Shown: positions 1,225 to 36,133, counted from the first letter of the stretch. The stretch is 64,000 nucleotides of DNA from a virus (IMGVR_UViG_3300029305_006219); one strand, 5' to 3'. Notes: generated from the letters alone by a model not told the origin. Program-made: numbers and translations.

Positions 1225-1614
1225 TTACTCAGCATCAGTATCAACGGGAAGAGTGTAAGCTGTCTTTGTCTTACCATCCTCAGTCTTTACCTTGCACTTT
1301 GCAATTGCGCCAGACTCAACAAGGTTGTTAAGCTTAGCCTGAATCTTATGAACAGTAAGCTCGCCGCTCTCGTCATTCATTGCAACAAGAATGTCGTCTC
1401 TTGTCTGAGGCTCGTTAGTAATTACTGCAAAGACGTTGCCTTGAAGCTCGTCGCCTTCAGCTCTCTTAGCGGCTGCGCGCTCTCTGTTCTTTGCATTTTT
1501 CTTGTCAAGCTTTGCAAGCTCGTTCTCTGCGTACTCTACGAATTCTGCGTTGTCTGCATAAAGCTCCTTCCACTCGGTGAGCTTCATAGCTGTTGTTCTC
1601 TTTGTGTCTGCCAT
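1225..1614 (-). CDS. small protein, paralog family member 1 (129 aa), possible winged-helix C-terminus
   Basis: Intact ORF with a TAA stop. It shares its architecture with the ORFs at 9817..10227 and 10799..11203: a K/R/A-rich segment in the N-terminal half (KKNAKNRERAAAKRAE in this member) and a conserved C-terminal block ending ..K..Y.L. Confidence 0.55.
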   Translation of the reverse strand: MADTKRTTAMKLTEWKELYADNAEFVEYAENELAKLDKKNAKNRERAAAKRAEGDELQGNVFAVITNEPQTRDDILVAMNDESGELTVHKIQAKLNNLVESGAIAKCKVKTEDGKTKTAYTLPVDTDAE

Positions 1615-5162: not shown

Positions 5163-5846
5163 ATGATTAAAGAATTTAAGAATAATCCTGTAAGAGATTT
5201 TGGTAACGTATATCAGACTATGTTGTCACAGATAAAAAAGAGATATGAGAAAGATCCTGTACAAGCTGGAGAATTAGCTATTAGTTTTATTGAATATGTA
5301 TTAACAGGTGATATTAGTAGTGACGATGATATTATTGAAGGCTTTGTTGAAGGATATAAGGTTACGACTAAAAAGAATCAAGATAAATATGATGCTAAGG
5401 TCGCTGCAACAAGAGACGCGCTAAAGCCAATTGCAGATATGTATAATAGGGGTATGACACAGGCGGCGATTGCGCGTGAGCTAGGTGTTCAGCCGCCCGC
5501 TATTTCAAAGAAAATGTCTACCATTCGTACACAGTTTCCAGAGTTGTTAGATAATGAAGGAAAATTAAAGAAAGTTTCCGAAAATTCTGGAAATAATGGA
5601 AAGTTTCCAAAAAATGAGGAAAGTATAGAAAAAGTTTCTGAAAATTCTGGAAATATTAAGAAAGAAGAAGAAAGTTTAGAAACGTTTCCAAGTTTCCAAA
5701 GTTTCCACAATAATAATAACTATAATAACAATAATAACTAGAATAATAATAATGAAGTTTCCATTTCGCCTCGCGGCGAGTCAGGGCTTCGCCCCGACAC
5801 CCCTGCGGCTTCGCCGATAAAGAAGATTGGAGGGTTTGAGTTTTGA
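5163..5846 (+). CDS. HTH DNA-binding protein (sigma-70 region-4 / ArpU-RinA-like helix-turn-helix), with a possible C-terminal extension past the TAG at 5739
   Basis: RBS ggaggt plus ATG at 5163. HTH motif GMTQAAIARELGVQPPAISKKMSTIR. The track ORF stops at the TAG at 5739-5741, and the frame then stays open to the TGA at 5844-5846. The 3' end is built from repeated KVSENSGN / GTTTCCA units. Confidence 0.5.
5571..5770. repeat. iteron-like direct repeats (A)AAGTTTCC(A/G)AAA, at least 7 copies including three tandem copies, followed by an AT-rich (AAT)n tract and a GC-rich segment
   Basis: aaagtttccgaaaa, aaagtttccaaaaa, aaagtttctgaaaa, cgtttccaa-gtttccaaa-gtttccacaa and agtttccattt, all inside the 3' end of the HTH gene. 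Confidence 0.5.
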
Positions 5847-9232: not shown

Positions 9233-9703
9233 TCACCCCTCGGTAAAGTAGGTGTCAAATTCGCCTTTAGTTTTAAGCGATTCAAGACCTTTCTTCGTGT
9301 ATCTCGTCAAGTCAAGCTTAAAGTATTCACCGCCTTGCTTGAACACTATCATTTTACCCGCCTTGACGATTTTACAGTAGTCTGCATTTTCCGATATAGC
9401 GGTTTCGATTGCTTGGATAATTCCGTTCTTAGTTTTATCCTCTTTCACTACCCTCTCGCGCTGTGTCTTTTGCTTATACTCGGTTGATTTAGCTTTATGA
9501 ACCGTTGCGCTAACTCGATTCTCTTTAGCTTTTGCGGTGAGTGCTTGTTCTTCTTCGTTGTCGATATAATCGTTATCAAAGAGCCAAAGGTCAACCGCCT
9601 CTTGCCGTGAGCATTTAAGCATACGCATATTCAGCTCTATTGCCTCATTCGGTACTCGCACTGTGCGCCCGTTCTCAAGGGTATAAAGGCTATAATCTGC
9701 CAT
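9233..9703 (-). CDS. hypothetical protein (156 aa)
   Basis: Intact ORF with a TGA stop. A class-A promoter lies directly upstream. Confidence 0.55.
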   Translation of the reverse strand: MADYSLYTLENGRTVRVPNEAIELNMRMLKCSRQEAVDLWLFDNDYIDNEEEQALTAKAKENRVSATVHKAKSTEYKQKTQRERVVKEDKTKNGIIQAIETAISENADYCKIVKAGKMIVFKQGGEYFKLDLTRYTKKGLESLKTKGEFDTYFTEG

Positions 9704-9730: not shown

Positions 9731-9759
9731 TGACATATATATTATACCACACTCTTGGT
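9731..9759 (-). promoter_or_regulatory. early leftward promoter (class A: TTGACA-N17-TGgTATAAT plus an upstream A/T tract)
   Basis: The reverse complement reads cTTGACAaatgaccaagagtgtggTATAAT. On the minus strand an A-tract aaaaaatttttcaaaaac lies upstream of the -35. Confidence 0.55.
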
Positions 9760-9816
9760 CATTTGTCAAGAGGTTTGGTAAAAGTTTTTGAAAAATTTTT
9801 TTGGTATGAGGGAGAA

Positions 9817-10227
9817 TTACTCTCCCTCTACCTCGTCTACTACCCCGTAATTAAGGGAGTAGTATGCAACTTTCTTTTCAAGGGTGCGCTTAAAGTCTGC
9901 GCTCTTGGACACGATAGCGGTAATCATCTGTGACGATACGTTATCTCCGTTAGCTCTCTTATACTCTTTGATAGAATCGACCTTGAGGAGTGAGCCAACG
10001 GTCATTCCCTTTTCATCTACACACTCGGCGAGAGCGTCCTTGATAAGTTCGGTTACTGCGAGAGCGTCTTTCTGCGCAGGAGTGAGAGAAGCGGACTTTG
10101 AGTTCTTACGGGAGAGAAGCTCTATCTCGTGAGCCATAACATCTGCCCACTCGGTTTTGCCGTTCTCTATGAGGAACGCTTTGATGTTCTCAAAATTCTC
10201 TCTCTTGGTGATTTTCTTTTCTGCCAT
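9817..10227 (-). CDS. small protein, paralog family member 2 (136 aa)
   Basis: Similar in length and blocks to 1225..1614 and 10799..11203, e.g. ...SSQMITAIVSKSADFKRTLEKKVAYYSL. Confidence 0.55.
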   Translation of the reverse strand: MAEKKITKRENFENIKAFLIENGKTEWADVMAHEIELLSRKNSKSASLTPAQKDALAVTELIKDALAECVDEKGMTVGSLLKVDSIKEYKRANGDNVSSQMITAIVSKSADFKRTLEKKVAYYSLNYGVVDEVEGE

Positions 10228-10306
10228 AGTTTTCTACCTTTGCGATCTGTGACCGCCCTTTCAAAATTTTTTATTTCAAGAGGATTTTCCTCTTGATTAC
10301 ATATAT

Positions 10307-10335
10307 ATTATATCACAAGTTTGTGATTTTGTCAA
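10307..10335 (-). promoter_or_regulatory. early leftward promoter (class A)
   Basis: The minus strand reads TTGACA-N17-TATAAT (plus-strand attatatc...ttgtcaagggg). Confidence 0.5.
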
Positions 10336-10429
10336 GGGGTTTTTGAAAAGTTTTTCAAAAATTTTTTATTTTTTTCAGTGGTTGCAACTACGGGACGATG
10401 CCTCGCAAGGTCGTTCTATCCGTCACCGC

Positions 10430-10476
10430 CCCTTGACTACGATAATATTATATCATAAAAAGATAAATTTGTCAAT
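10430..10476 (-). promoter_or_regulatory. early leftward promoter (class B, with upstream TGCACAA operators)
   Basis: The minus strand reads TTGACAaatttatctttttatgaTATAAT. It lies about 80 nt upstream of the class-A promoter, a tandem arrangement. Confidence 0.45.
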
Positions 10477-10491
10477 AGAAAATGGGAAAAT

Positions 10492-10545
10492 AATTTGCAC
10501 AAATTTGAGAGGAATTTTGGTGAGAAAATTGTGCAACTTGCACAA
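10492..10545. promoter_or_regulatory. operator-like palindromes AATTTGCACAAATT and TTGTGCAAcTTGCACAA
   Basis: A perfect 8-1-8 inverted repeat at 10529-10545. The same 17-mer recurs at 12857-12873 and 16958-16974, and related half-sites occur upstream of other class-B promoters. Confidence 0.5.
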
Positions 10546-10557
10546 AAACGCACAAAT

Positions 10558-10625
10558 CGGCCCAGCGGCGGCCGCCGTTGGGCCGGTCAAAAAAAGACCT
10601 CTGCCGTCGCAGAGGTCTATCCTCG
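10558..10625 (-). terminator. tandem terminator: a GC-rich palindrome plus a hairpin with T7
   Basis: ggcccagcggcggccgccgttgggcc, then hairpin agacctctg..cagaggtct followed on the minus strand by T7. Confidence 0.5.
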
Positions 10626-10798
10626 AGGTTGACCATTCTCGCTTTCTCGCCACTCCTTGCGCATAGGGGACTTTGGTTTTAATGGTCTGCAAAGGCGTGT
10701 GATTTGAACACACATCTGTTGGAAACGAAACCAACTGTTCTTCCATTAAACTACCCTTTGTTATGTATGAGGGGCGCATTTGCGCCCCTGTGCCTCAC

Positions 10799-11203
10799 TC
10801 ACGCAAGGCGAAAGTAAGTGACCTTTTTGTCAATGGTCTTGACTACATCACCGCAGTCAACGAGCTTTTTAAGCATAGAGGAAACTCGCTGTGAAGATGT
10901 TTCCTTACCATCTGCCCACTCAAACTCTGCGATACGAGAATCCTTTGCTATCGCACCGCACTGCATACCCTTTACATCGGTTGCTTCTGCGAGAACATCA
11001 TGAATGAGGTCAAGGAAAGTATCAACTTCCTCTGCGCGCTTTGCGCTGACCTTACCACTCTTGCTTTCAAGCTGACCGAGCTTCTTTTCGGCAAACTCGA
11101 TTACTTTATCCATAGGGATTGTGGTCGGCTCTCCGCTTGCCATCTTGATGATTTCCTCATACATCTGCTTCTGTGTGTACTTGATTTCCTTGATTTCTGC
11201 CAT
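10799..11203 (-). CDS. small protein, paralog family member 3 (134 aa)
   Basis: Third member of the family, e.g. ...SSQRVSSMLKKLVDCGDVVKTIDKKVTYFRLA. TGA stop. Confidence 0.55.
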   Translation of the reverse strand: MAEIKEIKYTQKQMYEEIIKMASGEPTTIPMDKVIEFAEKKLGQLESKSGKVSAKRAEEVDTFLDLIHDVLAEATDVKGMQCGAIAKDSRIAEFEWADGKETSSQRVSSMLKKLVDCGDVVKTIDKKVTYFRLA

Positions 11204-11354
11204 AATTTTTTTCCTCTCTTGCTATTAGGTTGCAACCCTTTAATTTTATTTATCAGAGGTATTCCCTCTTGATTACATATATATTATACCATACTTTTTG
11301 GTATTTGTCAATAGGTTTTTGAAAAATTTTTTATTTTTTTTCTTGGGTAGAGGG

Positions 11355-12074
11355 TTATTCACCCTCTACCTCTTTGCGCTTATGAAAGGGATATACCCAT
11401 TCACCCTCTGGAGTTAAGCAACCGAGTTTCGTGCGCTCTTGGAAGATATTACAACCTCTTTTTCCAAGTTCACAAAGAATACGGAGTTCCCATTGAACAT
11501 CGGAAAGTGCGGTATGTTCCTCAACAAAATCTTTATCTTGGTTAAGAAATGCGGTTACACCCTCAACAGAGGTCGGTATATATTTACCACTTGGAGTGCG
11601 GAGTTCGTGTTCGTTGCAAAATGCGATATAATCTGCGGTAGAGCATATGTCGTATTGTGCATTACACCATATATCTATAACCTCGATTTTGTCAAGTGGA
11701 TTCAAAATACCGAGCGCAGTTGCGGTTCTGCGGAATTTGTCCTCGTCAAACTCGGAGTTATAGGCAAAGCCATACTGTATGCCATATCGGTCAATATCTC
11801 TTGCTATTTGCTCAAATATCTGTTTTTCGGTACGGAGTATTGCCGTTCCGTTCTCAACATTCAAGTCAAACTTTGCGAGTTTTTCTGCTTTGACGAACAT
11901 ATCATTCAAGAGCCAAATGCGGTTGTGATAATGTTTGCCTACAAGATAGTCTTTGCCTTTGAGTATCTTATACTTAAAGGTTGTTAAGTCAACATCTGCT
12001 ATACAATAGCCTATGTTAAGTAGTGTTTGGGTACAACACCCTGCGGTTTCGGTATCAAATACCATAATGTTCAT
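11355..12074 (-). CDS. DEDDh-family 3'-5' exonuclease (DnaQ / RNase T-like), 239 aa
   Basis: Exo I motif MVFDTETAG, a later FDxxF block and the Exo III motif H-TALSDVQWE. Intact ORF with a TAA stop. Confidence 0.7.
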   Translation of the reverse strand: MNIMVFDTETAGCCTQTLLNIGYCIADVDLTTFKYKILKGKDYLVGKHYHNRIWLLNDMFVKAEKLAKFDLNVENGTAILRTEKQIFEQIARDIDRYGIQYGFAYNSEFDEDKFRRTATALGILNPLDKIEVIDIWCNAQYDICSTADYIAFCNEHELRTPSGKYIPTSVEGVTAFLNQDKDFVEEHTALSDVQWELRILCELGKRGCNIFQERTKLGCLTPEGEWVYPFHKRKEVEGE

Positions 12075-12159
12075 TTTTTCTTTTCCTCTCTTTCTGTCAT
12101 AGGGAGTAGCCCTCGCTCTCCACTCGACATATATATTATATCACATCTTGACGAATTTG

Positions 12160-12606
12160 TCAAGAGGTTTTACAAAATTTTTTCAAAATTTCAAAAATTT
12201 TTTCGGGCGGAAATGCGTCACCCTTAGTCCACTCAAGGCGGTTGCGCTCTTCATCGTCAAACAGTATGCCCTCACTCTTGGCTACGGACGATTTGGGTGT
12301 GCCATATGGAACGATATGCAATTCATCAAAAATAACGGACTTCAAGTGCTTTTTGAGCCATTTGCGCTTGGCTTTAGTGACCGCCTTGTTATAGTCCTCA
12401 GTTGCGGCTTTAGACAGCCACGATATAACACCTATATGAACGCCATTGCGCTGAGCCTTATTCAATGCTCTTGCAAGTGCAGACATATTGTGCATAGGTC
12501 TTGCTTCTTCATATGGGCGCGTTCGCTTGGCTTCAAGGTCATCGAGCCAGCCTTCGACCGCATAAAGGTCAGCAACGGTGCCGTCAAGGTCTAAATAAAT
12601 TGTCAT
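12160..12606 (-). CDS. HAD-superfamily 5'(3')-deoxyribonucleotidase-like phosphatase (NT5C-like), 148 aa
   Basis: HAD motif I LDLDGTVADL at the N-terminus. Size and layout are typical of phage NT5C-like enzymes. Confidence 0.6.
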   Translation of the reverse strand: MTIYLDLDGTVADLYAVEGWLDDLEAKRTRPYEEARPMHNMSALARALNKAQRNGVHIGVISWLSKAATEDYNKAVTKAKRKWLKKHLKSVIFDELHIVPYGTPKSSVAKSEGILFDDEERNRLEWTKGDAFPPEKIFEILKKFCKTS

Positions 12607-12640
12607 TTGGTTTAGTTCCTTTCTTCCTTACTGCTCTTAT

Positions 12641-12669
12641 ATTATACCATACTTTGAGCGATTTGTCAA
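12641..12669 (-). promoter_or_regulatory. early leftward promoter (class A)
   Basis: Plus-strand attatacc...ttgtcaagggg with a 17-nt spacer. A second, class-B promoter lies at about 12745-12795. Confidence 0.5.
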
Positions 12670-12856
12670 GGGGTTTTTGAAAAATTTTTTCAAAAATTTT
12701 TGAGTGTCCACTGATTAGCAAGTCCATTTCACTGCTTTTGTTTCTCACCCCTTGACTACGATAATATTATACCACAAAGGGCGCAAAAAGTCAAGCGGTT
12801 TTGGGAATTTTCTTTTCGTCAATTTGCACAAACTTTTGGCGAAAAAATGCGTGGAA

Positions 12857-12935
12857 TTGTGCAATTTGCACAAAAACGGCGCCACACCGATCGGTGGCGC
12901 GCCGACCAAAAAGAGGGAGATTAATCTCCCTCTAT
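12857..12935 (-). promoter_or_regulatory. regulatory/insulator cassette: TTGTGCAAtTTGCACAA, then the GC palindrome ggcgccaCACCGATCGGTGgcgcgcc, then a terminator hairpin
   Basis: Same element order as at 10492-10625. The terminator hairpin agagggagattaatctccctct overlaps the TAA stop of gene 12921..13130. Confidence 0.5.
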
Positions 12936-13130
12936 TATGATTTTATTGATAACTTTTGCATAGTCTTCTTGCGCTCTTCGGAATGCTTGTGCCGCAGTAT
13001 GCAAAGGGCATTCTTCGCAATCAATTTCGCCGCACTGTATATGAATGCAGGGGTCAATCATTATAGCTTCAAGAGTGTCGTGCTGTTCTGTTGCGGTTAT
13101 TGTGACTATGATTTTCATATTTACCTCCAA
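12921..13130 (-). CDS. small Cys-containing protein (69 aa)
   Basis: ORF from the track with a TAA stop. Confidence 0.45.
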   Translation of the reverse strand: MEVNMKIIVTITATEQHDTLEAIMIDPCIHIQCGEIDCEECPLHTAAQAFRRAQEDYAKVINKIIIEGD

Positions 13131-13381
13131 ATTAAATTGATAAGATAATAAGTATTCATCGCAAATAATGCGACATTAAGTATTACAAGATTTATGCGCC
13201 TTGCGCTAAAGCAAAATGCGGTTGCGATTGCCGAGCCGATGAAGAATAATACTGTCATATCGGCGCCACACATAACACCTATTGCGCAAGCGGTATAGAT
13301 TAGTGCGGTGATATCGGTGATATCAAATTCATAGGGGCGGTCAAGGCTGAAATAGGTTTTTAGTTTACCAATCAAAGTCAT
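13121..13381 (-). CDS. small membrane protein (86 aa)
   Basis: Two hydrophobic segments. TAA stop. Confidence 0.5.
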   Translation of the reverse strand: MTLIGKLKTYFSLDRPYEFDITDITALIYTACAIGVMCGADMTVLFFIGSAIATAFCFSARRINLVILNVALFAMNTYYLINLIWR

Positions 13382-13553
13382 CTACCTCTTCTTCCTCATA
13401 ATCATTAGTATAATAATATTGCGTGGTTTTGAACTCTTTACCACAACCGCATTTATATTTGCGACTTGCGACAATTTGCTCTCCGTCCTCTTCATATTTT
13501 GCCGATAAATATTTAACTTGGGCGGTGCTACCGCAATTTGGACATTTAATCAT
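13365..13553 (-). CDS. small zinc-ribbon protein (62 aa)
   Basis: CPNCG...CGCGKEF motifs. Confidence 0.5.
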   Translation of the reverse strand: MIKCPNCGSTAQVKYLSAKYEEDGEQIVASRKYKCGCGKEFKTTQYYYTNDYEEEEVDDFDW

Positions 13554-13753
13554 TTTAATTTAAGCTCCTTTCTAATATTGATAATTCCACGAAATTCTGC
13601 GGTATAGATTGCTTCACAGTGAGGGCAACAAACTTTAGCCTCAAAATCTGCTTCATACCCGTCAAAATTCCATATCTTTGCATCCACATCTCCACAGAAC
13701 AAGTCATCTCTGGTTATAAGTTTATCGCAATTTGGGCATTTAATCATTTTCAA
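13550..13753 (-). CDS. small zinc-ribbon protein (67 aa)
   Basis: CPNC...CCPHC motifs. Confidence 0.5.
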   Translation of the reverse strand: MKMIKCPNCDKLITRDDLFCGDVDAKIWNFDGYEADFEAKVCCPHCEAIYTAEFRGIINIRKELKLK

Positions 13754-13945
13754 ATTCTCCTTGATATTCTCTTATTGTGCAATATCCACTCCAACGCCAT
13801 TCAAGGCATTGTTGATTGATATATTCTTGTGCCTGTTCTTGACTATCAAAGATAGGCGGTTTATTATCTCCTATGAATCCTTTATGCAAGAAGCCGTTTG
13901 GACAAGAGCGAGTATGAATATAAATTACATATTGCATAAGTATTA
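13740..13945 (-). CDS. small protein (about 68 aa); the longer track ORF 13740..14273 is rejected because it runs through the tRNA
   Basis: An internal ATG with RBS aagaggtaatacttATG lies just downstream of the tRNA. Upstream of it, the ORF translates tRNA and promoter DNA (..GSIPIRF.. matches the T-arm). Confidence 0.35.
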
Positions 13946-13957
13946 CCTCTCTTTTTT

Positions 13958-14032
13958 TGGTGAAGCGAATGGGAATTGAACCCACAACGCAGTTGAATAG
14001 TGTCAACCTCATTACCTTTGTGATACCGCTTC
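13958..14032 (-). tRNA. tRNA with CTA in the anticodon loop: candidate amber (UAG) suppressor tRNA
   Basis: Minus-strand sequence GAAGCGGTATCACAAAGGTAATGAGGTTGACACTATTCAACTGCGTTGTGGGTTCAATTCCCATTCGCTTCACCA. The 7-bp acceptor stem has one G.U pair. U8, A14 and GG are in the D-loop. The T-arm is GTGGG/CCCAT with loop TTCAATT. CCA is encoded. The anticodon stem GTTGA/TCAAC is perfect but the loop CACTAT has 6 nt, which is atypical, so the fold needs software confirmation. Confidence 0.6.
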
Positions 14033-14045
14033 TTATTACATTTAT

Positions 14046-14074
14046 ATTATACCATATAATCTTGCTTTTGTCAA
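14046..14074 (-). promoter_or_regulatory. consensus promoter driving the tRNA (TTGACA-N17-TGgTATAAT)
   Basis: The reverse complement reads cTTGACAaaagcaagattatatggTATAAT. The predicted transcription start is about 7 nt before the tRNA 5' end. Confidence 0.55.
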
Positions 14075-14217
14075 GAGGTTTTCGAAAAATATTTGCAACT
14101 ATTTTTCTTATCTCCGATACTTTCCTACTCAAAGCTTTCGTGTCCGTTCTCTTGTTGTACACCAAGTTTCTGATTTCCATTCCTTGCAAGTTAATTTCTC
14201 CGCACGAGGTTCCCCCT

Positions 14218-14258
14218 CTTGACATTATTATTATATCATACAATCGGGAAAATGTCAA
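14218..14258 (-). promoter_or_regulatory. second (class-B) promoter upstream of the tRNA
   Basis: The reverse complement reads cTTGACAttttcccgattgtatgaTATAAT. TGCACAA-type sites lie at 14275-14319, a GC palindrome at 14321-14347 and a terminator at about 14350-14385 further upstream. Confidence 0.5.
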
Positions 14259-14461
14259 GTGGTAATGTTGCACAAAGTTTCAACAAAAAAATGGCGGGAA
14301 GTGTACAAAATGCACAAAACGGAACGCGCCGGCCGGGCTCGTTCCGCTCGGATTTCAGGCAAAAAAGAAAAAACCCAGAACTCATGAAAAGCTCTGGAAA
14401 TTTGTTGAGAGGTCTACTTCGTGGAAATTCGGACTTGGCGCGACCGCCTTCGTCCGTCAGC

Positions 14462-14764
14462 TTAATGGCTGAAGTGTTTCAACACGTCTTGTACATTGTA
14501 CTCATTTTCATCATCACTCATAATTATAATTTTATTTTCCCATTCAGCAGGAATGCTTAAAATTTTAAATGTTTCCTTTAAGAATGAAATCATATTCGTA
14601 CAATCATTTTTTTGATTGTCAGAATGAAAGAGAAGGGCGCCCAACTCTTCACAATAAAGTGCATGAAGTGGATAGTCTTGCGCCGAGAGGGTTTCCCAAT
14701 CAAGGGGAGTAAGTGATGATTCAAAAGAAGTGATGACAAGAGCGTGGATGAAGTGATACTTCAT
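14462..14764 (-). CDS. hypothetical protein (100 aa)
   Basis: ORF from the track with a TAA stop. Confidence 0.5.
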   Translation of the reverse strand: MKYHFIHALVITSFESSLTPLDWETLSAQDYPLHALYCEELGALLFHSDNQKNDCTNMISFLKETFKILSIPAEWENKIIIMSDDENEYNVQDVLKHFSH

Positions 14765-14846
14765 ACCGCGTGACCTCCTTGTATCTCTTATTTCTTTTTA
14801 CATTTATATTATAATATAAAATTTTATAAAAATCAATGGGTGTGGA

Positions 14847-15055
14847 TTATTCCACACCCAAGAGTTCCTTTATTTTATTGACTACTTGCTCTTGTGCTTG
14901 TTTCAGAATGTAATAATCACAATTATCAAGTGTTGCAATATAATCATCTACCGCTATGCGGATTTCAATTTCATTACTATTATGATTAAGATCATACTCC
15001 TTAATGATTTCTTTTTCATTGATTTCTACGCCCGTAGTAATCTCTATATACATAT
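14847..15055 (-). CDS. small protein (about 68 aa, starting MYIEITTGVEINEKE)
   Basis: A strong RBS aaaaggagaaaacaatATG lies inside track ORF 14847..15173. A class-A promoter at 15386-15414 serves the operon. Confidence 0.45.
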
Positions 15056-15096
15056 TGTTTTCTCCTTTTGCGAATTTCCAAATTTTTCCAATGCGC

Positions 15097-15354
15097 CTAC
15101 CAAGCGACTCGGATATGATATCTACCTTCAAAAAGGTTTTTTTCAATCTCAGCCTTGTAGCCAAATTTTTCAAGATTCGCTCTTATGAGTTCGACCTCAT
15201 CTTTGGAAACCTCTTTTACTCCACTGAAATAACCTTGTGAAGCCCTTTTTTTGATGAAGCGCAACATCTCTTTCATTGCCCACGAATGCATGAATTGGTT
15301 TTGATTATTTTCTGCCATCTCTCTTGCTTCCTTTGCGGTCATAGGGTTTTTCAT
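15097..15354 (-). CDS. hypothetical protein (85 aa); the only early gene found that ends on TAG
   Basis: The stop codon is cta on the plus strand at 15097-15099, which is TAG on the minus strand. The frame stays open for about 22 more codons. Confidence 0.5.
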   Translation of the reverse strand: MKNPMTAKEAREMAENNQNQFMHSWAMKEMLRFIKKRASQGYFSGVKEVSKDEVELIRANLEKFGYKAEIEKNLFEGRYHIRVAW

Positions 15355-15428
15355 AAGTATTTCCTCTCTTTCTTTTAGTATATATATTATACCATACTTT
15401 TATATATTTGTCAAGTAGTTTTTGAAAA

Positions 15429-15653
15429 TTATTTGAAAAAAATTTCAAGCACAATTACATCGTCGCAACAACCCTCAATAGTTATTTCCATACTATCTAT
15501 CTTGCGGTTAGCATACTCTTTAATATGCTCACATTCTTTAACATACCAATCGATTGATTGAGCACCAAGCCATTGTTCTGCTTTGAGTAAGAAGTTGTCA
15601 TAAATGCGGATTTTATCTATGTTGTAGATAAGCGGAAGTTGTGCAAGTGTCAT
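15429..15653 (-). CDS. hypothetical protein (74 aa)
   Basis: RBS AGAGAGG. A class-B promoter lies at 15686-15714. Confidence 0.5.
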   Translation of the reverse strand: MTLAQLPLIYNIDKIRIYDNFLLKAEQWLGAQSIDWYVKECEHIKEYANRKIDSMEITIEGCCDDVIVLEIFFK

Positions 15654-15832
15654 AAGTCATTTTCCTCTCTTTCTTTTACACTTATATTATACCACAAATA
15701 TCGGGAATTGTCAATAGGTAATAATCAACAAAGTTTTGCGCCGATTTTTGTGCAAAATGCCAGCCCACAGATAAAACGGCTCGGCGCGCCCGATGCCGAG
15801 CCGCCAAAAAACAAAAGAGGGCAATCGCCCTC

Positions 15833-16213
15833 TTAGGTTTGATATTTAGTTATCTCTGTGGAAGAGCTTTGCGCCACCATTAGCGAAATACACCTTTGCA
15901 TTGTATCGAGTTCAACCACTCTGATGACTTTGCCTTTAGCATACGCATATCCGCACTCCCAAGCTGATCCAAGGTCACCATTGGCGCCTTCGCAAAAATA
16001 GAGAATTTCATCACATTCATCTATTGCTTGAACGTCGTGTTGGAATACCTTGCGCGCCCATTCGGAGTTAGGTAAAGCTTTAGCATTAGGTATCTCTAAT
16101 TCGTGGGGAACGTAAACTTTATATCCTAACTGTCGTAAGAGTTTTGCGTGCTTGTTTATTCTGTCCTTTTGGCTTTCGGTAAACATAGCACTTGCTATAT
16201 AAAACTTTTTCAT
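15833..16213 (-). CDS. nucleoside 2-deoxyribosyltransferase-like protein (NDT / Rcl-DNPH1 fold), 126 aa
   Basis: N-terminal FYIASAMFTE and catalytic-region DLGSAWECGYAYAKGKVI match the NDT family pattern (YxAGxxF ... D.G...E.GyA.a.gK). Confidence 0.55.
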   Translation of the reverse strand: MKKFYIASAMFTESQKDRINKHAKLLRQLGYKVYVPHELEIPNAKALPNSEWARKVFQHDVQAIDECDEILYFCEGANGDLGSAWECGYAYAKGKVIRVVELDTMQRCISLMVAQSSSTEITKYQT

Positions 16214-16238
16214 ATCTCACCTCTTGATAGTGGATAGA

Positions 16239-16457
16239 TTATTCATCTATCCACTCTTTTACTTTATAGGCTGTAACCTCGACAATATCAGCGGTGAATT
16301 TTATCTCTCCCGTAAAGTTATAGATTACGTAAGTATTACCTCTGTTATTTGTCGTAAACTCTCTTGCAAACTGAATTGCCATACTAAGATCGTCAAAATC
16401 AGCAATATGTTTGCCGTCCGCATAGACGCCATAGTCAAGAATGTCAAATTTTACCAT
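16239..16457 (-). CDS. hypothetical protein (72 aa)
   Basis: RBS AAGGAAGG. A class-B promoter lies at about 16486-16522, directly preceded by ATTTTGCACAAAATT. Confidence 0.5.
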   Translation of the reverse strand: MVKFDILDYGVYADGKHIADFDDLSMAIQFAREFTTNNRGNTYVIYNFTGEIKFTADIVEVTAYKVKEWIDE

Positions 16458-16555
16458 AATATTAATACCTTCCTTCCTTTACTGTGCCTATATTATATCA
16501 TATTACTTGCCTCTTGTCAATAGGCATTTTGCACAAAATTTTGCGGCGGGTCTTG

Positions 16556-16864
16556 TTAACAATATACAAGACCCATATCACGCCAACGGAGAATAGAAAT
16601 TTGAGAGCAGGCGCGCCCGACCTCAAGCGCTTTTTTCAAGGTACTTTCGCGATGGCTCTTGTCTATGTAATAAACTCCAGAACTATACCATATACCACAG
16701 TTGCCTTCGTATGCCTTAACGGCGTTGATTGCTTCGCGCGGGTCACGGGTTTCGATACCTTCGGTGGCTACTTGGTAGCCTGTTTTGAACGTGACGCGCT
16801 GACCCTTTTTGAGAGTTAAGCCGTCATTATCTTTAAGTTTGAGAATCGAGCGAATGTTAATCAT
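16556..16864 (-). CDS. hypothetical protein (102 aa)
   Basis: A class-B promoter at about 16895-16925, with TTGTGCAAcTTGCACAA at 16958-16974 upstream of it. Confidence 0.5.
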   Translation of the reverse strand: MINIRSILKLKDNDGLTLKKGQRVTFKTGYQVATEGIETRDPREAINAVKAYEGNCGIWYSSGVYYIDKSHRESTLKKALEVGRACSQISILRWRDMGLVYC

Positions 16865-17041
16865 AGGTGTTTCCCCTTCCTTTATCTTACGTACTTATTA
16901 TACCATAAAAGCGGGAATTTGTCAATAGGCAAAAGTAACAAAGTTTTGATAGTAAATTTGTGCAACTTGCACAACTATGCGTAAAGCGTCACGCCGCGGC
17001 CCTTGGCGTGACGGCGAAAAAAAAAGAGGGCGCAAGCGCCC

Positions 17042-17242
17042 TCATATGAAGTCGGCAAATTGGTCTTCCACCCAAGCCATTATAAGAGGATTAAAGGTTT
17101 GTATCTCAACCTCTACGCATGAGGGATGGACTTGGAGAAGAATTGCCTCTCCTGCGTTATTAGCGGCGAGGAATGAGCAGACTTTTTGCACCGCCATACC
17201 GCTTTCAAAAGTTTTATTAAGCATAAAATTCTTATACTGCAT
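17042..17242 (-). CDS. small protein (about 66 aa)
   Basis: RBS ataagaaaggagatatatATG. It is the C-terminal part of track ORF 17042..17443, whose 5' part overlaps gene 17271..17558 out of frame. Confidence 0.4.
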   Translation of the reverse strand: MQYKNFMLNKTFESGMAVQKVCSFLAANNAGEAILLQVHPSCVEVEIQTFNPLIMAWVEDQFADFI

Positions 17243-17270
17243 ATATATCTCCTTTCTTATGGGGATTGCC

Positions 17271-17558
17271 TTAGCAATCCCCCGTATAGCAACCCATATA
17301 GGGGTCAAAGCCGTTTTCATCAGGCTCTTCTTCCTCATAGTCATACCAGTCGTCATTATAATAGAGGGTCTCAGAGCCGTGATGGTAAATGATGCGCGCC
17401 ATATCTGTCGCCTCTGCTTCAGTAAGATAGCCATTAGCAACAAGCTCTATAAGTCTGCCTATTGCAAGAGAATGAGTATCTTCAAGTCCAAATTCCGTAC
17501 AAGCAAGATTGAAGCAAGTCTGCAAGTCGAGTTTTGTGTAATCCATAATGCACCTCAT
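17271..17558 (-). CDS. hypothetical acidic protein (95 aa)
   Basis: ORF from the track. A class-B promoter lies at about 17596-17632. Confidence 0.5.
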   Translation of the reverse strand: MRCIMDYTKLDLQTCFNLACTEFGLEDTHSLAIGRLIELVANGYLTEAEATDMARIIYHHGSETLYYNDDWYDYEEEEPDENGFDPYMGCYTGDC

Positions 17559-17832
17559 AGTATTTATTTGAGAGTCTATTCCCTCTCTTCTTGCCTATAT
17601 TATATCATATATTCTTGCATTTGTCAATGAATAAAATGTAAACAATATATGAATTATGGGACGGGATCCAATCATAGTTTATTCAATCAATTGAAATAAA
17701 AAATTTACAAATTGTTCACAAATTGCTTTAACGGTGCGCGCCGACCGTGCCCGCACCGAGCGATATAAAAAGGCGCGCCAAAGGTCACCCTAAGGCGCGT
17801 TATAGTGTTGATATGAGATGCTAAGGGCGCGC

Positions 17833-18126
17833 TCAGGCGCCCTCATCATCAAGCTGACTCTCTATAAATGGTATGATGATATTGAATATTTCAACTTCTT
17901 TATTGGTTAAGCCTATAATATCGCAATATGCTATTGGCTCTGCTATATCTTTATATACCGTGCGTACTGAGGGGCTTAAATGGTATGGGTCAATATAAGG
18001 GTCGCTATCACTATCACCCCACATTCTGTCACCTTTGACATCGTATATTGCCAATACATCGCCGAAGTAGCGGGCAAGATATTCTGCCCATTGTGTAAAC
18101 TCATTTTGTATGCTTATTCTTTTCAT
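17833..18126 (-). CDS. hypothetical protein (97 aa)
   Basis: ORF from the track. Confidence 0.45.
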   Translation of the reverse strand: MKRISIQNEFTQWAEYLARYFGDVLAIYDVKGDRMWGDSDSDPYIDPYHLSPSVRTVYKDIAEPIAYCDIIGLTNKEVEIFNIIIPFIESQLDDEGA

Positions 18127-18130
18127 TATA

Positions 18131-18346
18131 TTATTCCCCCATTATCTCCGCTATTGTGTTATCATATATTCTTTTTGCTTTAGTAACGCCATATTGAAAC
18201 GATATAATACCCTTACGATAGTCATCTAATATATGCCCTATGGCGATAGTTGTAGGGTGTTCAAGTCCTAACTCTTTACACGCTTTATTAAAGTATCTTC
18301 TTATGCTCATAATATTCTCCCTTCTTGAGAGGTGGATTATCTCCAC
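18131..18346 (-). CDS. hypothetical protein (71 aa)
   Basis: ORF from the track. Confidence 0.45.
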   Translation of the reverse strand: MEIIHLSRRENIMSIRRYFNKACKELGLEHPTTIAIGHILDDYRKGIISFQYGVTKAKRIYDNTIAEIMGE

Positions 18347-18681
18347 CTCTCACCTCTCTCTATATCAAAGTAATATATAATTTCATCAGCGTCAATGAAT
18401 TTATTTAAGTCAAGACCGCTATTGTAAAACAAGTCATTTAATTCATCAAGATTATTATAGTCATAAGGGTCAAACTCATAAAGTTCATCTTCATTATTGC
18501 AAAATGGGCAAGGGTCATTGTATTCCATAGCATACTGAGGAAGAGTCACTTTATGACACTTGCTACAATAAAGTAAATCTGTTAAACGGGCAGGGCGAGT
18601 AACTATTTTGTTATTAAGATAAAACGTCGCAAGATATTTGTTATTGTATTCATTGTGCTTTGTGTTAATAGTAATTTTCAT
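18337..18681 (-). CDS. Cys-containing small protein (114 aa)
   Basis: CSKCHK...CPFC motifs. Confidence 0.45.
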   Translation of the reverse strand: MKITINTKHNEYNNKYLATFYLNNKIVTRPARLTDLLYCSKCHKVTLPQYAMEYNDPCPFCNNEDELYEFDPYDYNNLDELNDLFYNSGLDLNKFIDADEIIYYFDIERGERWR

Positions 18682-19269
18682 TATTATATACCTCTCTTTT
18701 CTTTATCTTGACGGGGCTATTATATAGCCCCGTATAATTTCATAGGGTTACTTATATTGATTTTCTCTTGAGTGTTTTCTAACTGTTGTATTAAAGCTTT
18801 TTCCTCTAACTCTTGTAAAGCAAGTTCAAACTCATACTCTCGACGGTTATCAATGTGCTTGTCGACCACTATTTTATTTTTCATTATCTTCACCCCCTTT
18901 GTCTATAATGGTAATAGCAATTTTTGCAACAAGTGCAATTAAACCTATTACTAACCAAGTGCCAATAAATTCACCTAACATTTTTTTACCTCTCTGTTTT
19001 GATTTTTTGTTTGCGCTCTCTCTCTTGGAGCATACTCATTGTATCACTTCTTTTTGAACTCCAAGTTTCGAAATTATGAACTTTTTGTAAATCCGACGGG
19101 ATTTTTCAAATTTTTTTTGTTAACAACTACACAACAATCTCGACATCTTTTGTTCATAATTTATTCATAACTTTTTTAGTTATTTTCGGGAAAAAAATTA
19201 TTCACAATTTGTTCACAATTCCGCTCACGACATCTCCCTCCTAGAATATTTCTTTTATTTCAAAAAACG

Positions 19270-29603: not shown

Positions 29604-30182
29604 ATGTTAAATAATACTGATAAAATCAGAGTAGAAAATCGCGCAAATGCGATTGTTTGTTACAGAGTACCAGAATCTAAGGTTATTAGACGTTTTGAGC
29701 CAAAAGAAACAAAAGAAATTCCTATGGGCGAATTGCGTCAAGCAGTACAAATCCCAGGTACTTATAATCTAATAGCTAGTGATTTGATTCTGCATAGTAA
29801 AGAAGCTGTTGAAGAACTAATTCCAGATGCAGAACCTGAGTATTTTTATGATAAAAATGATGTTCTTTTTCTTCTTGAAAAAGGCACTTTAGATCAACTT
29901 AAAGATGCATTAGATTTTGCGCCTGAGGGTGTTATTGATCTAATTAAAGAAGAGGCTGTTCTTACAGAACTTAACGACATGAAGAAAAGAACTGCAATTT
30001 TTGAAGCTACTAATTTTAATGTAACTAAAGCAATTGAGCTTAGACATGAAGCGCAAAAGGAAACTAAAGTTGAAACTAAGACCAGACGTGCGGCGCCAAT
30101 CGGTGAAGCAGAGACTGAAGAAACAACTCAAGCGCCTGTGCGCAGAACGGCTATGCCCAATAAATACACTATTGTAAAGTAA
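29604..30182 (+). CDS. hypothetical head-completion or connector-region protein (192 aa)
   Basis: RBS aaaggagatataattATG inside track ORF 29580..30182. Confidence 0.45.
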   Translation: MLNNTDKIRVENRANAIVCYRVPESKVIRRFEPKETKEIPMGELRQAVQIPGTYNLIASDLILHSKEAVEELIPDAEPEYFYDKNDVLFLLEKGTLDQLKDALDFAPEGVIDLIKEEAVLTELNDMKKRTAIFEATNFNVTKAIELRHEAQKETKVETKTRRAAPIGEAETEETTQAPVRRTAMPNKYTIVK

Positions 30183-30200
30183 TATTAAGGAGGTGTTCGT

Positions 30201-30677
30201 ATGCCAGTAACATCAACACCTTTTTCCGTAGTGCATGATAGATTTTTATCGAAAATAACTGACGATATGTATATGGAAATTACTCCAGAAGAAACCGCCG
30301 CAGCATTGAATGAGCTTCTTGATAGCGCAATACCGTGGTTTGAATTTCCTAGGGTTAATTTAAACGATAAAACAAATGAAGTATTTAATGCTTCATTAAG
30401 TGATGAAGAAATTAATATTCTTGCTATATATATGATAGTCGAATGGATTGGATATCAATTGGCTAATATTGAATTGATTCGTATGAAGTATAGTGGAAGT
30501 GATTTTAAATTTACTTCTCAAGCTAATCATATGCACAAGCTTAAAGATATGCAAAAGGAATATGAAAGAAAAGGATTCCATTTGCAAAGACTTTATAAAC
30601 GGAGAAAAGCAGATAGTAAAGGTATTATGAAATCTACTTTTGGAAGTATTATGGAATCTTCTTTTAAGGAGGACTAA
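30201..30677 (+). CDS. hypothetical structural protein (158 aa)
   Basis: RBS taaggagg. ORF from the track. Confidence 0.45.
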   Translation: MPVTSTPFSVVHDRFLSKITDDMYMEITPEETAAALNELLDSAIPWFEFPRVNLNDKTNEVFNASLSDEEINILAIYMIVEWIGYQLANIELIRMKYSGSDFKFTSQANHMHKLKDMQKEYERKGFHLQRLYKRRKADSKGIMKSTFGSIMESSFKED

Positions 30678-30679
30678 AT

Positions 30680-30991
30680 ATGCTTTTAAAGTATGATTAT
30701 AATATAGGTAAAGAAGCAATAAAAATTAGTTTTACTCGATTAACTAATTAGATATATAAGCTTCTCCCATTGCGTGAAGAAGGGAGCGATTGGCGCAAAC
30801 CTTTAATCACAATTATGGAAGAGCTTTAGGGTATGAATAGGTTATTTCTCGATCAATAGCCTAATCTATATAAATTACTTTGTAAATTAGAAGGACTATT
30901 TACTCTTGATTCTGAAGAAGATTTTATGACTTATCGTGGAATCATTTTTGAGTGTCTGAGTATTTTAAGTGAATTACAACAATGTCTTTAA
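30680..30991 (+). CDS. hypothetical protein (about 103 aa, 3 in-frame TAG)
   Basis: ATG at 30680. Frame 2 is open through three TAGs to the TAA at 30989-30991. Confidence 0.4.
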
Positions 30992-31971: not shown

Positions 31972-31988
31972 GATAAAAGGAGTACACT

Positions 31989-33327: not shown

Positions 33328-33362
33328 TAAAAAACTTAAAATATTTTAAGGAGGACAACTCT

Positions 33363-34286: not shown

Positions 34287-34310
34287 GCAGTAAGTAATTA
34301 AATAGTATTT

Positions 34311-34341: not shown

Positions 34342-34363
34342 TTATGAGTAAAAGGAGGTATGT

Positions 34364-36124: not shown

Positions 36125-36133
36125 TATTTAAAC

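What the first reader, a model, noticed from the sequence alone, without database searches (positions are those of the whole stretch)
10492..19222. Family of TTGTGCAA/TTGCACAA palindromic operator-like sites upstream of class-B promoters
The perfect 17-bp inverted repeat TTGTGCAA-n-TTGCACAA occurs three times, at 10529-10545, 12857-12873 and 16958-16974. Related pseudo-palindromes AATTTGCACAAATT, ATTTTGCACAAAATT, GTGTACAAAATGCACAA, AATTGTTCACAAATTG and TTCACAATTtgTTCACAATT occur at 10492, 12821, 14275-14319, 15744, 16526, 17711 and 19201. All of them lie 10 to 80 bp upstream of the -35 of class-B promoters, including the outer promoter of the suppressor tRNA. This is a regulon-like arrangement for a dimeric DNA-binding protein. 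Candidate proteins are the TAG-containing HTH regulators or the three-member paralog family.
Basis: seen in the sequence. Interest (0 to 1): 0.65.

Follow-up and report, generated by a model that had tools for sequence, protein, structure and literature searches.

The report
Phased operator sites at phage early promoters
Half of the strong early promoters of this gut phage, which reads the TAG stop codon as an amino acid, carry a conserved 17-bp palindrome on one face of the DNA helix; the same site and spacing occur at ordinary genes of Clostridia bacteria, so the phage probably plugs these promoters into a still unidentified host regulator.

Summary
TTGTGCAA-N-TTGCACAA occurs three times exactly (0 expected). 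Six weaker sites with an exact half-site or at most 3 mismatches lie upstream of six consensus sigma-A promoters on the minus strand (10.4-17.0 kb). All nine sites sit on one lattice: -43/-44, -54, -64, -76/-77, -86, -97, -106 (R=0.89 at 10.5 bp, p~1e-4). The layout is a strong distal palindrome plus a weak proximal site fused to the -35. Related and unrelated phage contigs share it.

Apparently chromosomal genes of Clostridia MAGs share it too: in 11 of 40 cases the palindrome ends 30-33 nt before a -35.

Best reading: operators of a dimeric transcription factor, most likely host-encoded, replacing the UP element used by the other promoter class. A PucR-type regulator is a lead only.

Rival: the phage's own winged-helix paralogs (9817-10227, 10799-11203, 1225-1614). 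They co-occur with the motif, but one relative has them with almost no sites.

The sites at 17711 and 19201 are tandem direct repeats of another motif, not family members. Relatives carry different palindromes at the same place. This is a new member of a known kind, of moderate interest.

The parts
10529..10545 (.). Perfect palindrome TTGTGCAAcTTGCACAA. It is the distal operator of promoter P10475, with its centre at about -97.
10486..10502 (-). Site TTGTGCAAATTATTTTC with an exact promoter-distal half. Centre at about -54 of P10475.
10447..10475 (-). Class-B promoter P10475 (TTGACA-17-TGATATAAT). It is followed 140 nt downstream by class-A promoter P10335 and the winged-helix gene 9817-10227.
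12857..12873 (.). Perfect palindrome TTGTGCAAtTTGCACAA. It is the distal operator of P12794, with its centre at about -106. It directly follows a GC-rich hairpin plus TTTT.
12815..12831 (-). Site TTGTGCAAATTGACGAA (3 mismatches). Centre at about -64 of P12794. The right half TGACGAA recurs in relatives.
12766..12794 (-). Class-B promoter P12794 (TTGACT-17-TGGTATAAT), in tandem with class-A P12669 in front of the dNMPase-like gene 12160-12606.
14301..14317 (-). Site TTGTGCATTTTGTACAC (3 mismatches). Centre at about -86 of P14258.
14259..14275 (-). Proximal site TTGTGCAACATTACCAC, which abuts the -35. Centre at about -44.
14230..14258 (-). Class-B promoter P14258, the outer promoter upstream of class-A P14074 and the tRNA-like gene 13961-14032.
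15748..15764 (+). Site with an exact half-site (TTGTGCAAAATGCCAGC on the + strand). Centre at about -77 of P15714.
15715..15731 (-). Degenerate proximal site TTGTTGATTATTACCTA at about -44 of P15714. It is weak and was called mainly from its position.
15686..15714 (-). Class-B promoter P15714.
16520..16536 (-). Proximal site TTGTGCAAAATGCCTAT. Its last T is the first T of the -35. Centre at about -43 of P16520.
16492..16520 (-). Class-B promoter P16520.
16958..16974 (.). Perfect palindrome TTGTGCAAcTTGCACAA. Its end lies 32 nt from the -35 of P16925, with its centre at about -76. This is the geometry most common in phage and host loci.
16925..16941 (-). Degenerate proximal site TTGTTACTTTTGCCTAT at about -43 of P16925 (weak).
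16897..16925 (-). Class-B promoter P16925.
17704..17730 (-).
19196..19224 (-). There is no consensus promoter within 100 nt.
9817..10227 (-). Winged-helix paralog (family W1) behind the tandem P10475/P10335 promoters. It is a rival candidate binder.
10799..11203 (-). [not shown]
1225..1614 (-). Third, more distant winged-helix paralog (family W3).

Best explanation
The sites are operators of a sequence-specific dimeric transcription factor that acts on RNA polymerase at one class of sigma-A early promoters.

Shown. Each class-B promoter has a consensus -35 and extended -10, but lacks the AT-rich UP element of class A. In its place are a weak site whose promoter-distal half is TTGTGCAA and which is fused to the -35 (or lies 10 or 20 bp upstream of it), and a strong, often perfect 17-bp palindrome 3 to 6 helical turns further upstream. 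All sites lie on the same face of the helix.

Inferred. Dimers on the strong distal site help to fill the weak proximal site, which touches sigma region 4 or the alpha subunit. The factor is most likely host-encoded and conserved in gut Clostridia, because the same palindrome occurs at the same distance from sigma-A promoters of chromosomal genes. It most likely works as a class I/II-type activator. This would couple class-B genes to a host signal, while tandem class-A promoters give unconditional expression. Those genes include the outer promoter of the CUA tRNA, the dNMPase-like gene, one winged-helix gene and several small host-takeover genes. A PucR-type regulator (GGDEF-like domain plus HTH_30) is the only concrete lead for the identity of the factor.
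For: Dyad symmetry and enrichment.

Register. Nine window sites fall at -43/-44, -54, -64, -76/-77, -86, -97 and -106, giving R=0.89 at 10.5 bp and p~1e-4. Over 91 non-redundant promoters from window and loci, the 8-mer start peaks at 16-17, 27, 37-38, 49 and 58-59 nt from the -35, with p~0.001 when the proximal peak is excluded.

Coupling. The distance to the upstream GC hairpin varies from 3 to 13 nt, whereas the distance to the promoter is quantised.

Phage distribution. The layout is conserved in relatives found through a protein, not the motif: L239, L240, L247, L250-252 and L270. The same layout occurs in unrelated 22-50 kb phages that have no W1 gene in the locus.

Host evidence. In 11 of 40 promoter-associated cases the -35 starts 30-33 nt after the palindrome. 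Chromosomal context was shown by Pfam for three of them: L129 (SBP_bac_5 next to OAD_beta), L224 (SBP_bac_1 next to ABC/FtsX) and L141 (MCP, epimerase).

PucR lead. The operator sits directly after the TATAAT of PucR-type genes in L160, L162, L130, L201 and L273. Variants occur in L278 and L275. PucR-type regulators are mostly activators; PutR binds a 17-bp inverted repeat and GabR binds two inverted repeats immediately upstream of the -35 (PMC7652997).

Precedent. A relative, L254, has an early promoter with several CGAACATATGTTCG boxes. This sequence is the Firmicute LexA-box consensus from memory. It suggests that this phage group does use host-factor sites.
Against: No binding data exist and the host of this phage is unknown.

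Class-B promoters already have consensus -35 and extended -10 elements, so an activator seems unnecessary and a repressor would fit as well.

Relatives carry different palindromes at the same place, in some lineages at nearly every early promoter. That pattern is also what co-evolving phage factor and operator pairs would give.

In nine host loci the palindrome lies 16 nt from a weak -35 of a ppx-like gene. That puts it about half a turn out of the phage register.

The PucR link rests on about 6 independent loci. Two of six further homologues looked up (L274, L277) show no site, and L276 only a variant (TTTTGCGCAATTT). No HTH_30 protein is encoded in the window or in the viral loci. MAG contigs can be mis-binned.
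Confidence: 0.45

Rival explanations
1. The phage makes the binder itself. An early winged-helix protein of the paralog family (9817-10227, 10799-11203, perhaps with the adjacent 156-aa protein 9233-9703) would bind the palindromes as a dimer. It would repress class-B promoters by occluding the -35/UP region, with cooperative help from the distal site. This would give feedback or early shut-off. Operator and recognition helix would co-evolve between lineages.

For: The W1 family and the 156-aa family occur in all 8 TTGTGCAA-type relatives. L241, which has TTGTGCA-like proximal sites, also has W1. Other lineages carry diverged clusters W2 and W3 together with other palindromes.

W1 occurs in 18 of the 118 viral loci that were found through the 17-mer alone, in 15 of them together with the 156-aa gene.

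The 9817-type gene sits behind a class-B plus class-A tandem promoter in the window, L239 and L240.

Consensus promoters suit repression better than activation.
Against: L244 has three W1 copies with the same recognition-helix motif (SNQRVS) and 36 promoters, but essentially no TTGTGCAA sites.

Unrelated phages and chromosomal host genes use the same site and geometry without a W1 gene in the locus.

The co-occurrence is confounded by shared ancestry.

There is no Pfam or PHROG annotation and no solved homologue by sequence.
Confidence: 0.25
2. A host or phage repressor binds the same sites and silences class-B promoters under some condition, for example stationary phase or sporulation. This would be like Spo0A at phi29 early promoters, rather than activation.
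For: The proximal site overlaps the first base of the -35 and covers the UP-element position. The promoters are already consensus. In PucR-type host genes the palindrome lies at +1 to +17, a repressor position. A right half-site TGACGAA recurs in the window, L036, L041 and L074. It fits the 0A-box consensus TGNCGAA, which is quoted from memory.
Against: At -54, -64 and beyond the sites do not overlap core promoter elements. Host examples have imperfect -35 hexamers with the palindrome at about -75, a typical activator position. The 0A-box resemblance is a 7-mer and was not tested.
Confidence: 0.15
3. The palindromes are not protein operators. They would be by-products of the tandem terminators just upstream (a U-tract continuing into TTTTGTGCAA), or small hairpins in read-through RNA.
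For: The left half regularly continues the T-run after a GC-rich hairpin. The consensus scan lists two of the palindromes as weak terminator-like hairpins.
Against: The hairpin-to-palindrome distance varies from 3 to 13 nt, while the palindrome-to-promoter distance is quantised at 10.5 bp. Proximal sites have no hairpin partner. Host and L067-type examples lack an upstream terminator. The stem is 7-8 AT-rich pairs with a 1-3 nt loop.
Confidence: 0.05

Closest known systems
Tandem activator sites at sigma-70 promoters (CRP class I/II/III geometry; lambda cI at OR2 activating PRM). This comparison is from established knowledge.
   Same: A dimer site centred near -42/-43 touches the -35. Further sites lie at integral helical turns upstream (-54 to -106). 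A strong distal site is combined with a weak proximal one.
   Different: The sequence and spacing differ: TTGTG-N7-CACAA against TGTGA-N6-TCACA, which has 8 nt between TGTG and CACA. The promoters here are already consensus. The protein is unknown.
PucR-family regulators (PutR, AdeR, GabR of C. glutamicum), as summarised in PMC7652997
   Same: They bind inverted repeats of 17-24 bp. GabR binds two repeats immediately upstream of the -35. Most are activators. Clostridial PucR-type genes carry this exact palindrome at their own promoters.
   Different: No PucR-type gene is present in the window or in the viral loci. Known family members are pathway-specific, not global. The site of the Clostridial proteins has never been measured.
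Host-takeover module of SPO1-like (Herelleviridae) phages. This comparison is from established knowledge; PMC7414437 and PMC6873191 were retrieved but not read beyond the listing.
   Same: A block of many small early genes, each with its own strong sigma-A promoter and terminator, next to the structural genes. The N-terminal 90 residues of the large terminase are 50-59% identical to ~120-142-kb Enterococcus, Geobacillus and Alicyclobacillus phages.
   Different: No sequence-specific palindromic operator class has, to my knowledge, been described for SPO1 early promoters. SPO1 shut-off uses gp44/50/51 and TF1. This phage also recodes TAG.
Phassvirus group (phAss-1, 135,976 bp, TAG read as Gln, tRNA-SUP-CTA, predicted host Eubacteriales), PMC10607447
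   Same: Comparable genome size: an identical copy of the 134-aa protein lies on a 135-kb contig. TAG recoding of late genes and a tRNA with CUA are shared. So is kinship with Enterococcus phage EF1.
   Different: There was no nucleotide match to phage records at BLAST sensitivity. The window is therefore at most a distant relative, or phAss-1 is not in that collection. The paper contains neither 'promoter' nor 'palindrom'.
Rex operator (TTGTGAA-N4-TTCACAA). The consensus is quoted from memory.
   Same: The outer pentamers TTGTG...CACAA are the same. Rex is a winged-helix dimer.
   Different: Rex sites are 18 bp with 8 nt between the pentamers. Here the site is 17 bp with 7 nt, and the inner bases are GCAA/TTGC.

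Membership tests
Operator of a dimeric transcription factor at a sigma-A promoter | Dyad-symmetric site present far more often than chance | tested here: met
   There are 3 exact 17-mers against 0 expected. With up to 3 mismatches there are 6 against 0.54. The 8-mer occurs 17 times against 3.1.
Operator of a dimeric transcription factor at a sigma-A promoter | Fixed position or helical register relative to the core promoter | tested here: met
   In the window R=0.89 at 10.5 bp with p~1e-4. Across 91 non-redundant promoters p~0.001.
Operator of a dimeric transcription factor at a sigma-A promoter | Conservation in related genomes found independently of the motif | tested here: met
   The motif is enriched in L239, L240, L247, L250-252 and L270. 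It is absent from most other relatives, which carry other palindromes at the same place.
Operator of a dimeric transcription factor at a sigma-A promoter | Demonstrated binding of a protein | not testable with these tools
   This needs EMSA, footprinting or DAP-seq.
PucR-family regulator operator | Inverted repeat of about 17-24 bp near or upstream of the -35 | tested here: met
   The site is a 17-bp inverted repeat. The literature values come from PMC7652997.
PucR-family regulator operator | Site associated with the regulator's own gene (autoregulation) across homologues | tested here: inconclusive
   The site is present in L160, L162, L130, L201 and L273. Variants occur in L278 and L275, and L276 has only TTTTGCGCAATTT. 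It is absent in L274 and L277.
PucR-family regulator operator | A PucR-type (HTH_30) protein available in the infected cell | not testable with these tools
   None is encoded in the window or in the viral loci. The host is unknown.
Phage repressor/operator system of the lambda OR/OL type | Cognate phage-encoded DNA-binding protein linked to the operators | tested here: inconclusive
   Winged-helix paralogs co-occur with the motif. L244 is a counter-example, and unrelated phages lack them in the locus.
Rex box | TTGTGAA-N4-TTCACAA: 18 bp with 8 nt between TTGTG and CACAA (consensus from memory) | tested here: not met
   All three perfect sites are 17 bp with 7 nt between the pentamers.
CRP/FNR site | TGTGA-N6-TCACA (consensus from memory) | tested here: not met
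   The spacing is one base shorter and the inner bases differ.
UP element | AT-rich -59 to -38 sequence matching AAAWWTWTTTTNNAAAANNN (consensus from memory) | tested here: not met
   Class-A promoters match it, for example AAAAAATTTTTCAAAAACCC. Class-B upstream regions do not.
Intrinsic terminator | GC-rich stem followed by a T-run, at a fixed place after a gene | tested here: not met
   The stem is AT-rich with 7 pairs. The distance to the real GC hairpins varies. The register follows the downstream promoter.

The most novel reading that the evidence does not exclude
A virulent, SPO1-like phage of gut Clostridia that recodes TAG addresses about half of its host-takeover promoters through a conserved host regulator, whose 17-bp site also controls transporter and surface-protein genes. 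Sister lineages have swapped this operator for other palindromes at the very same position. Early-promoter control in this phage group would then evolve by cassette-like exchange of operator type. The exchange would either track the host's regulators or track a diversifying family of phage winged-helix proteins, which would define specificity groups in lytic phages.
Probability: 0.25. Interest if true: 0.7.

Novelty: new member of a known kind. Interest (0 to 1): 0.5.

Why it matters
If the reading is right, the window gives a ready-made, testable cis-regulatory code for uncultivated Clostridia and their large phages. The code is a defined 17-bp site with known geometry. It occurs at phage early promoters, including one that drives the tRNA needed to read the recoded late genes, and at host transporter and surface-protein genes.

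It could identify an uncharacterised regulator of gut Clostridia. It could give a physiological input into the timing of code switching. It could also explain why related phages carry different palindromes at the same promoter position.

If instead the phage winged-helix proteins bind the sites, they would be an early-promoter regulator of a kind that, to my knowledge, has not been described for this group of large phages.

Tried and rejected
1. Nucleotide searches of the phage collection with 10300-18200 and 30000-50000 found no usable relative.
2. Pfam and PHROGs on the early proteins found only Nuc_deoxyrib_tr, a deoxyribonucleotidase-like and an exonuclease-like match, and no DNA-binding family. 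The TAG-containing HTH candidates gave only sub-threshold hits.
3. Rfam found only the two tRNAs and no RNA family over the palindromes or the leaders.
4. A full-text search for the two 8-mers returned only primer-type matches.
5. A sequence search of the PDB with the 134-aa protein found nothing significant.
6. An HMM of the PucR HTH against six-frame translations of the window and all viral loci gave no hit.
7. A profile comparison of the L016/L042/L067 downstream protein with the winged-helix families aligned the recognition-helix region but was not significant.
8. I considered and set aside Rex, CRP/FNR, TnrA/GlnR, LacI-type, Fur-type 7-1-7, FapR and parS as the motif. Spacing or sequence does not fit. 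These consensus sequences are from memory.
9. The terminator or RNA-hairpin reading was rejected on geometry.
10. The ppx-type host sites (palindrome 16 nt from a weak -35) do not fit the phage register and remain unexplained.

Full report
**Setting**

The window is part of a large phage genome. With TAG read as sense, the plus strand from 20.2 kb onward resolves into long genes, for example 36805-46257 (3151 codons, 82 TAG). The minus-strand block from about 8.6 to 19 kb has no in-frame TAG. It consists of some 25 small genes.

Most of these small genes are preceded by a perfect TTGACA-17-TGnTATAAT promoter and followed by a terminator. There are 13 promoters scoring 12/12 on the minus strand. 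The N-terminal 90 residues of the large terminase are 50-59% identical to ~120-142-kb Enterococcus, Geobacillus and Alicyclobacillus phages.

An identical copy of one early protein lies on a 135-kb contig. The block therefore looks like the host-takeover module of SPO1-like phages (established knowledge). The phage resembles the TAG-recoding 'Phassvirus' group described in PMC10607447. That paper mentions neither promoters nor palindromes. Kinship to that group was not tested directly, and nucleotide searches of phage records found nothing.

**Check of the observation**

- The 17-mer TTGTGCAANTTGCACAA occurs exactly at 10529, 12857 and 16958, against none in shuffles.
- With up to 3 mismatches there are 6 matches against 0.54 expected.
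- The 8-mer occurs 17 times against 3.1 expected, and 13 of the 17 lie in 10.5-17.0 kb.

Printing the minus-strand context of every consensus promoter shows two classes.

- **Class A** (9769, 10335, 11311, 12163, 12669, 14074, 15414) has an AT-rich stretch such as AAAAAATTTTTCAAAAACCC directly upstream of the -35. This is a near-consensus UP element (consensus from memory).
- **Class B** (10475, 12794, 14258, 15714, 16520, 16925) has TTGTGCAA-type sites instead. P17627 also lacks an UP element, but it carries a different repeat.

Three class-B promoters stand 125-185 nt upstream of a class-A promoter, forming tandem pairs: 10475/10335, 12794/12669 and 14258/14074.

The sites at 17711 and 19201 are tandem direct repeats of AATTGTGAAyA with an 11-bp period. 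The second has no consensus promoter nearby. I do not count them as members of the family.

**Anatomy**

The TSS is taken as 7 nt after the -10 hexamer; this is an inference. On that basis, the nine sites with an exact half-site or at most 3 mismatches are centred at -43, -44, -54, -64, -76, -77, -86, -97 and -106. These values fall on one lattice of 10.5 bp. The resultant length is R=0.89, with p~1e-4 against uniform placement, or 7e-4 when periods of 9.5-11.5 are scanned.

The proximal site is asymmetric. Its promoter-distal half is consensus. Its promoter-proximal half is degenerate (TGCCTA) and runs into the first T of TTGACA.

The strong palindromes follow a pair of terminators: an ordinary one, then a very GC-rich hairpin often containing GGCGCGCC. 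The spacing between hairpin and palindrome varies from 3 to 13 nt. The sites are therefore coupled to the downstream promoter, not to the terminator.

**Related sequences**

Several of these share 65-73% nucleotide identity with window genes at 22-27 kb. About twenty show the same layout:

- a palindrome;
- then 31/32, 42/43, 53, 62 or 69 nt;
- then a proximal TTGTGCAAnnTGCCTA fused to TTGACA;
- then an extended -10.

Over 91 non-redundant promoters the 8-mer start peaks at 16-17, 27, 37-38, 49 and 58-59 nt from the -35.

Relatives were also collected independently of the motif, through the 148-aa dNMPase-like protein. This gave 34 loci, with a split result.

- The closest ones and some distant ones (L239, L240, L247, L250-252, L270) are rich in the motif.
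- Most others have none. At the same place, after a terminator and upstream of a consensus promoter, they carry other palindromes:
  - GTTAATCAAA-N9-TTTGATTAAC (L269);
  - GTTAATTAGA-N9-TCTAATTAAC (L259);
  - TTAGT-N4-ACTAA (L254, L245, L266);
  - a TAGACGA-type motif at 21 of 23 promoters (L257).
- One L254 promoter carries several CGAACATATGTTCG boxes. This sequence is the Firmicute LexA consensus, quoted from memory.

The architecture is thus conserved while the operator sequence is lineage-specific.

**Who binds: phage candidates**

Evidence in favour of this family:

- This family (W1) and the adjacent 156-aa protein (9233-9703) occur in all eight TTGTGCAA-type relatives.
- Other lineages hold diverged clusters W2 and W3, with 2-4 copies each.
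- W1 is also present in 18 of the 118 loci found through the palindrome alone, in 15 of them together with the 156-aa gene.

Evidence against it:

- L244 has three W1 copies with the same recognition-helix motif and 36 promoters, but practically no sites.
- The same operator layout occurs in small unrelated phages (L016, L042, L051, L067). There it lies next to terminase and portal genes, with no W1 hit in the locus.
- The gene downstream of the operator in those phages ends in a segment that looks like a winged helix. The profile comparison was not significant.

**Who binds: the host**

More than half of the 80 record titles shown are Clostridia: Oscillospiraceae, Lachnospiraceae, Christensenellales, Acutalibacteraceae and Eubacteriales. 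Most sites are intergenic.

I took the best sigma-A-like promoter within 90 nt on either side. In 11 of 40 cases its -35 starts 30-33 nt after the palindrome, the same distance as at P16925.

Pfam shows that three of these are ordinary chromosomal contexts:

- L129: a family-5 solute-binding protein next to oxaloacetate decarboxylase beta;
- L224: a family-1 solute-binding protein next to ABC/FtsX genes;
- L141: next to a chemotaxis receptor and an epimerase.

L129 and L224 also have a degenerate proximal site fused to the -35.

A second recurrent context is a PucR-type regulator gene (GGDEF_2 plus HTH_30). There the palindrome sits directly after its TATAAT box in L160, L162, L130 and L201. 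Of six further homologues looked up, one has the site in the same place with one mismatch (L273). One has a 2-mismatch version 7 nt upstream of its -35 (L278). One has half-sites (L275). One has only a variant, TTTTGCGCAATTT (L276). Two show nothing (L274, L277).

PMC7652997 states that PucR-type regulators are mostly activators, that PutR binds a 17-bp inverted repeat, and that GabR binds two inverted repeats immediately upstream of the -35. No HTH_30 domain is encoded in the window or in any viral locus.

Nine loci place the palindrome 16 nt from a weak -35 of a Ppx/GppA-like gene. That is about half a turn off the phage register, and I cannot explain it.

**Weighing**

That the sites are operators of a dimeric sequence-specific protein acting in register with RNA polymerase is well supported; I put this at about 0.8.

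For the identity of the protein, three findings make a host factor the more economical reading:

- the chromosomal host sites with identical geometry;
- the occurrence in unrelated phages;
- the counter-example L244.

I put the host reading at 0.45 as stated, including the activator-type mechanism. The phage winged-helix family remains a serious rival at 0.25. A repressor version has 0.15. A non-protein reading is unlikely, at 0.05.

The direction of regulation is inferred only. Activation is suggested by the replacement of the UP element, by the host examples with imperfect -35 hexamers, and by what is known of PucR-type proteins. Repression is suggested by the consensus core promoters and by the overlap with the -35.

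**Novelty**

Operators in helical register with a promoter are a textbook kind of element. This particular site, its use at the early promoters of a phage that recodes TAG, and its presence at Clostridial host genes were not found in the literature searched. I rate it a new member of a known kind. The open question of the binder and the lineage-specific exchange of operator types are the interesting parts.

Noticed in passing
window 9741-15414, minus strand (promoters at 9769, 10335, 11311, 12163, 12669, 14074, 15414): Class-A promoters carry a near-consensus UP element that is itself an AT-rich inverted repeat (TTTTTGAAAAA-A-TTTTTCAAAAA). It resembles a CodY box (AATTTTCWGAAAATT, from memory) with the spacing off by one base.
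   Followed up: partly
window 10562-10618, 12877-12933, 14330-14398, 15775-15834, 16986-17043, 17735-17850: Every class-B intergenic region has two terminators in tandem. The second is a very GC-rich hairpin in a ~37% GC genome, and it often holds GGCGCGCC (an AscI site).
   Followed up: no
window 10689-10760 and 13961-14032, minus strand: Both tRNA genes score as tRNA in Rfam (44.6 and 38.9 bits) but have non-canonical anticodon loops of 8 nt (or 6). ARAGORN calls a 4-base anticodon 'tcgt' for the first and misses the second. The loop of the second contains CUA, so it may be an amber suppressor.
   Followed up: partly
window 20227-64000, plus strand: TAG is read as sense in late genes, for example 36805-46257 (3151 codons, 82 TAG) and 46361-51328 (32 TAG). 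The minus-strand early block has none.
   Followed up: partly
window 17704-17730 and 19196-19224; L239, L240, L250; host locus L141 about 5240-5290: There is a second motif family: tandem direct repeats AATTGTGAAyA / TATGAACAA with an 11-bp period. It occurs in the phage, in its relatives, and next to the palindrome in a Lachnospiraceae chromosome.
   Followed up: partly
loci L269, L259, L257, L254, L245, L266 (relatives): Other lineages carry different palindromes at the same promoter-upstream position, in some lineages at nearly all early promoters. In L269 the palindrome ends a fixed 12 nt from the -35, with its centre at about -62.
   Followed up: partly
L254 minus strand, upstream of the promoter at position 5538 (reverse-strand coordinate): An early promoter of a relative is preceded by several CGAACATATGTTCG boxes. 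This sequence is the Firmicute LexA/DinR consensus, quoted from memory.
   Followed up: no
window, first ~20 nt of transcripts from most early promoters (e.g. 10300-10440, 12740-12765, 14205-14229): There is a conserved initial transcribed sequence GTCAAGGGG / ATCAAGAGG, often forming a 5' hairpin. In the tandem pairs, a leader of about 100-150 nt lies between the class-B and class-A promoters.
   Followed up: no
window 9233-9703, minus strand: A 156-aa protein with no family match is always encoded next to the winged-helix gene in relatives, forming a conserved gene pair. It has a basic middle region.
   Followed up: partly
window 15833-16213, 12160-12606 and 11355-12074, minus strand: The host-takeover block encodes a nucleoside 2-deoxyribosyltransferase (Pfam 1.7e-19), a 5'-3' deoxyribonucleotidase-like protein and a DnaQ-like exonuclease. 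This hints at nucleotide-pool manipulation.
   Followed up: no
host loci L151, L167, L182, L192, L200, L207, L209, L212, L234: In Christensenellales-type genomes the exact palindrome lies 16 nt upstream of a weak -35 (TATACA) of a Ppx/GppA-like gene. Its centre is at about -60, out of phase with the phage sites.
   Followed up: partly
window 12815-12831; L036, L041, L074: A variant right half-site TGACGAA recurs. It fits the Spo0A 0A-box consensus TGNCGAA, quoted from memory.
   Followed up: no
L193, L232, L184, L173 (Streptococcus parasanguinis / australis): The 17-mer lies inside a 13-bp-stem terminator-like hairpin between a PucR-type gene and msmK. This one is probably a terminator rather than an operator.
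   Followed up: partly
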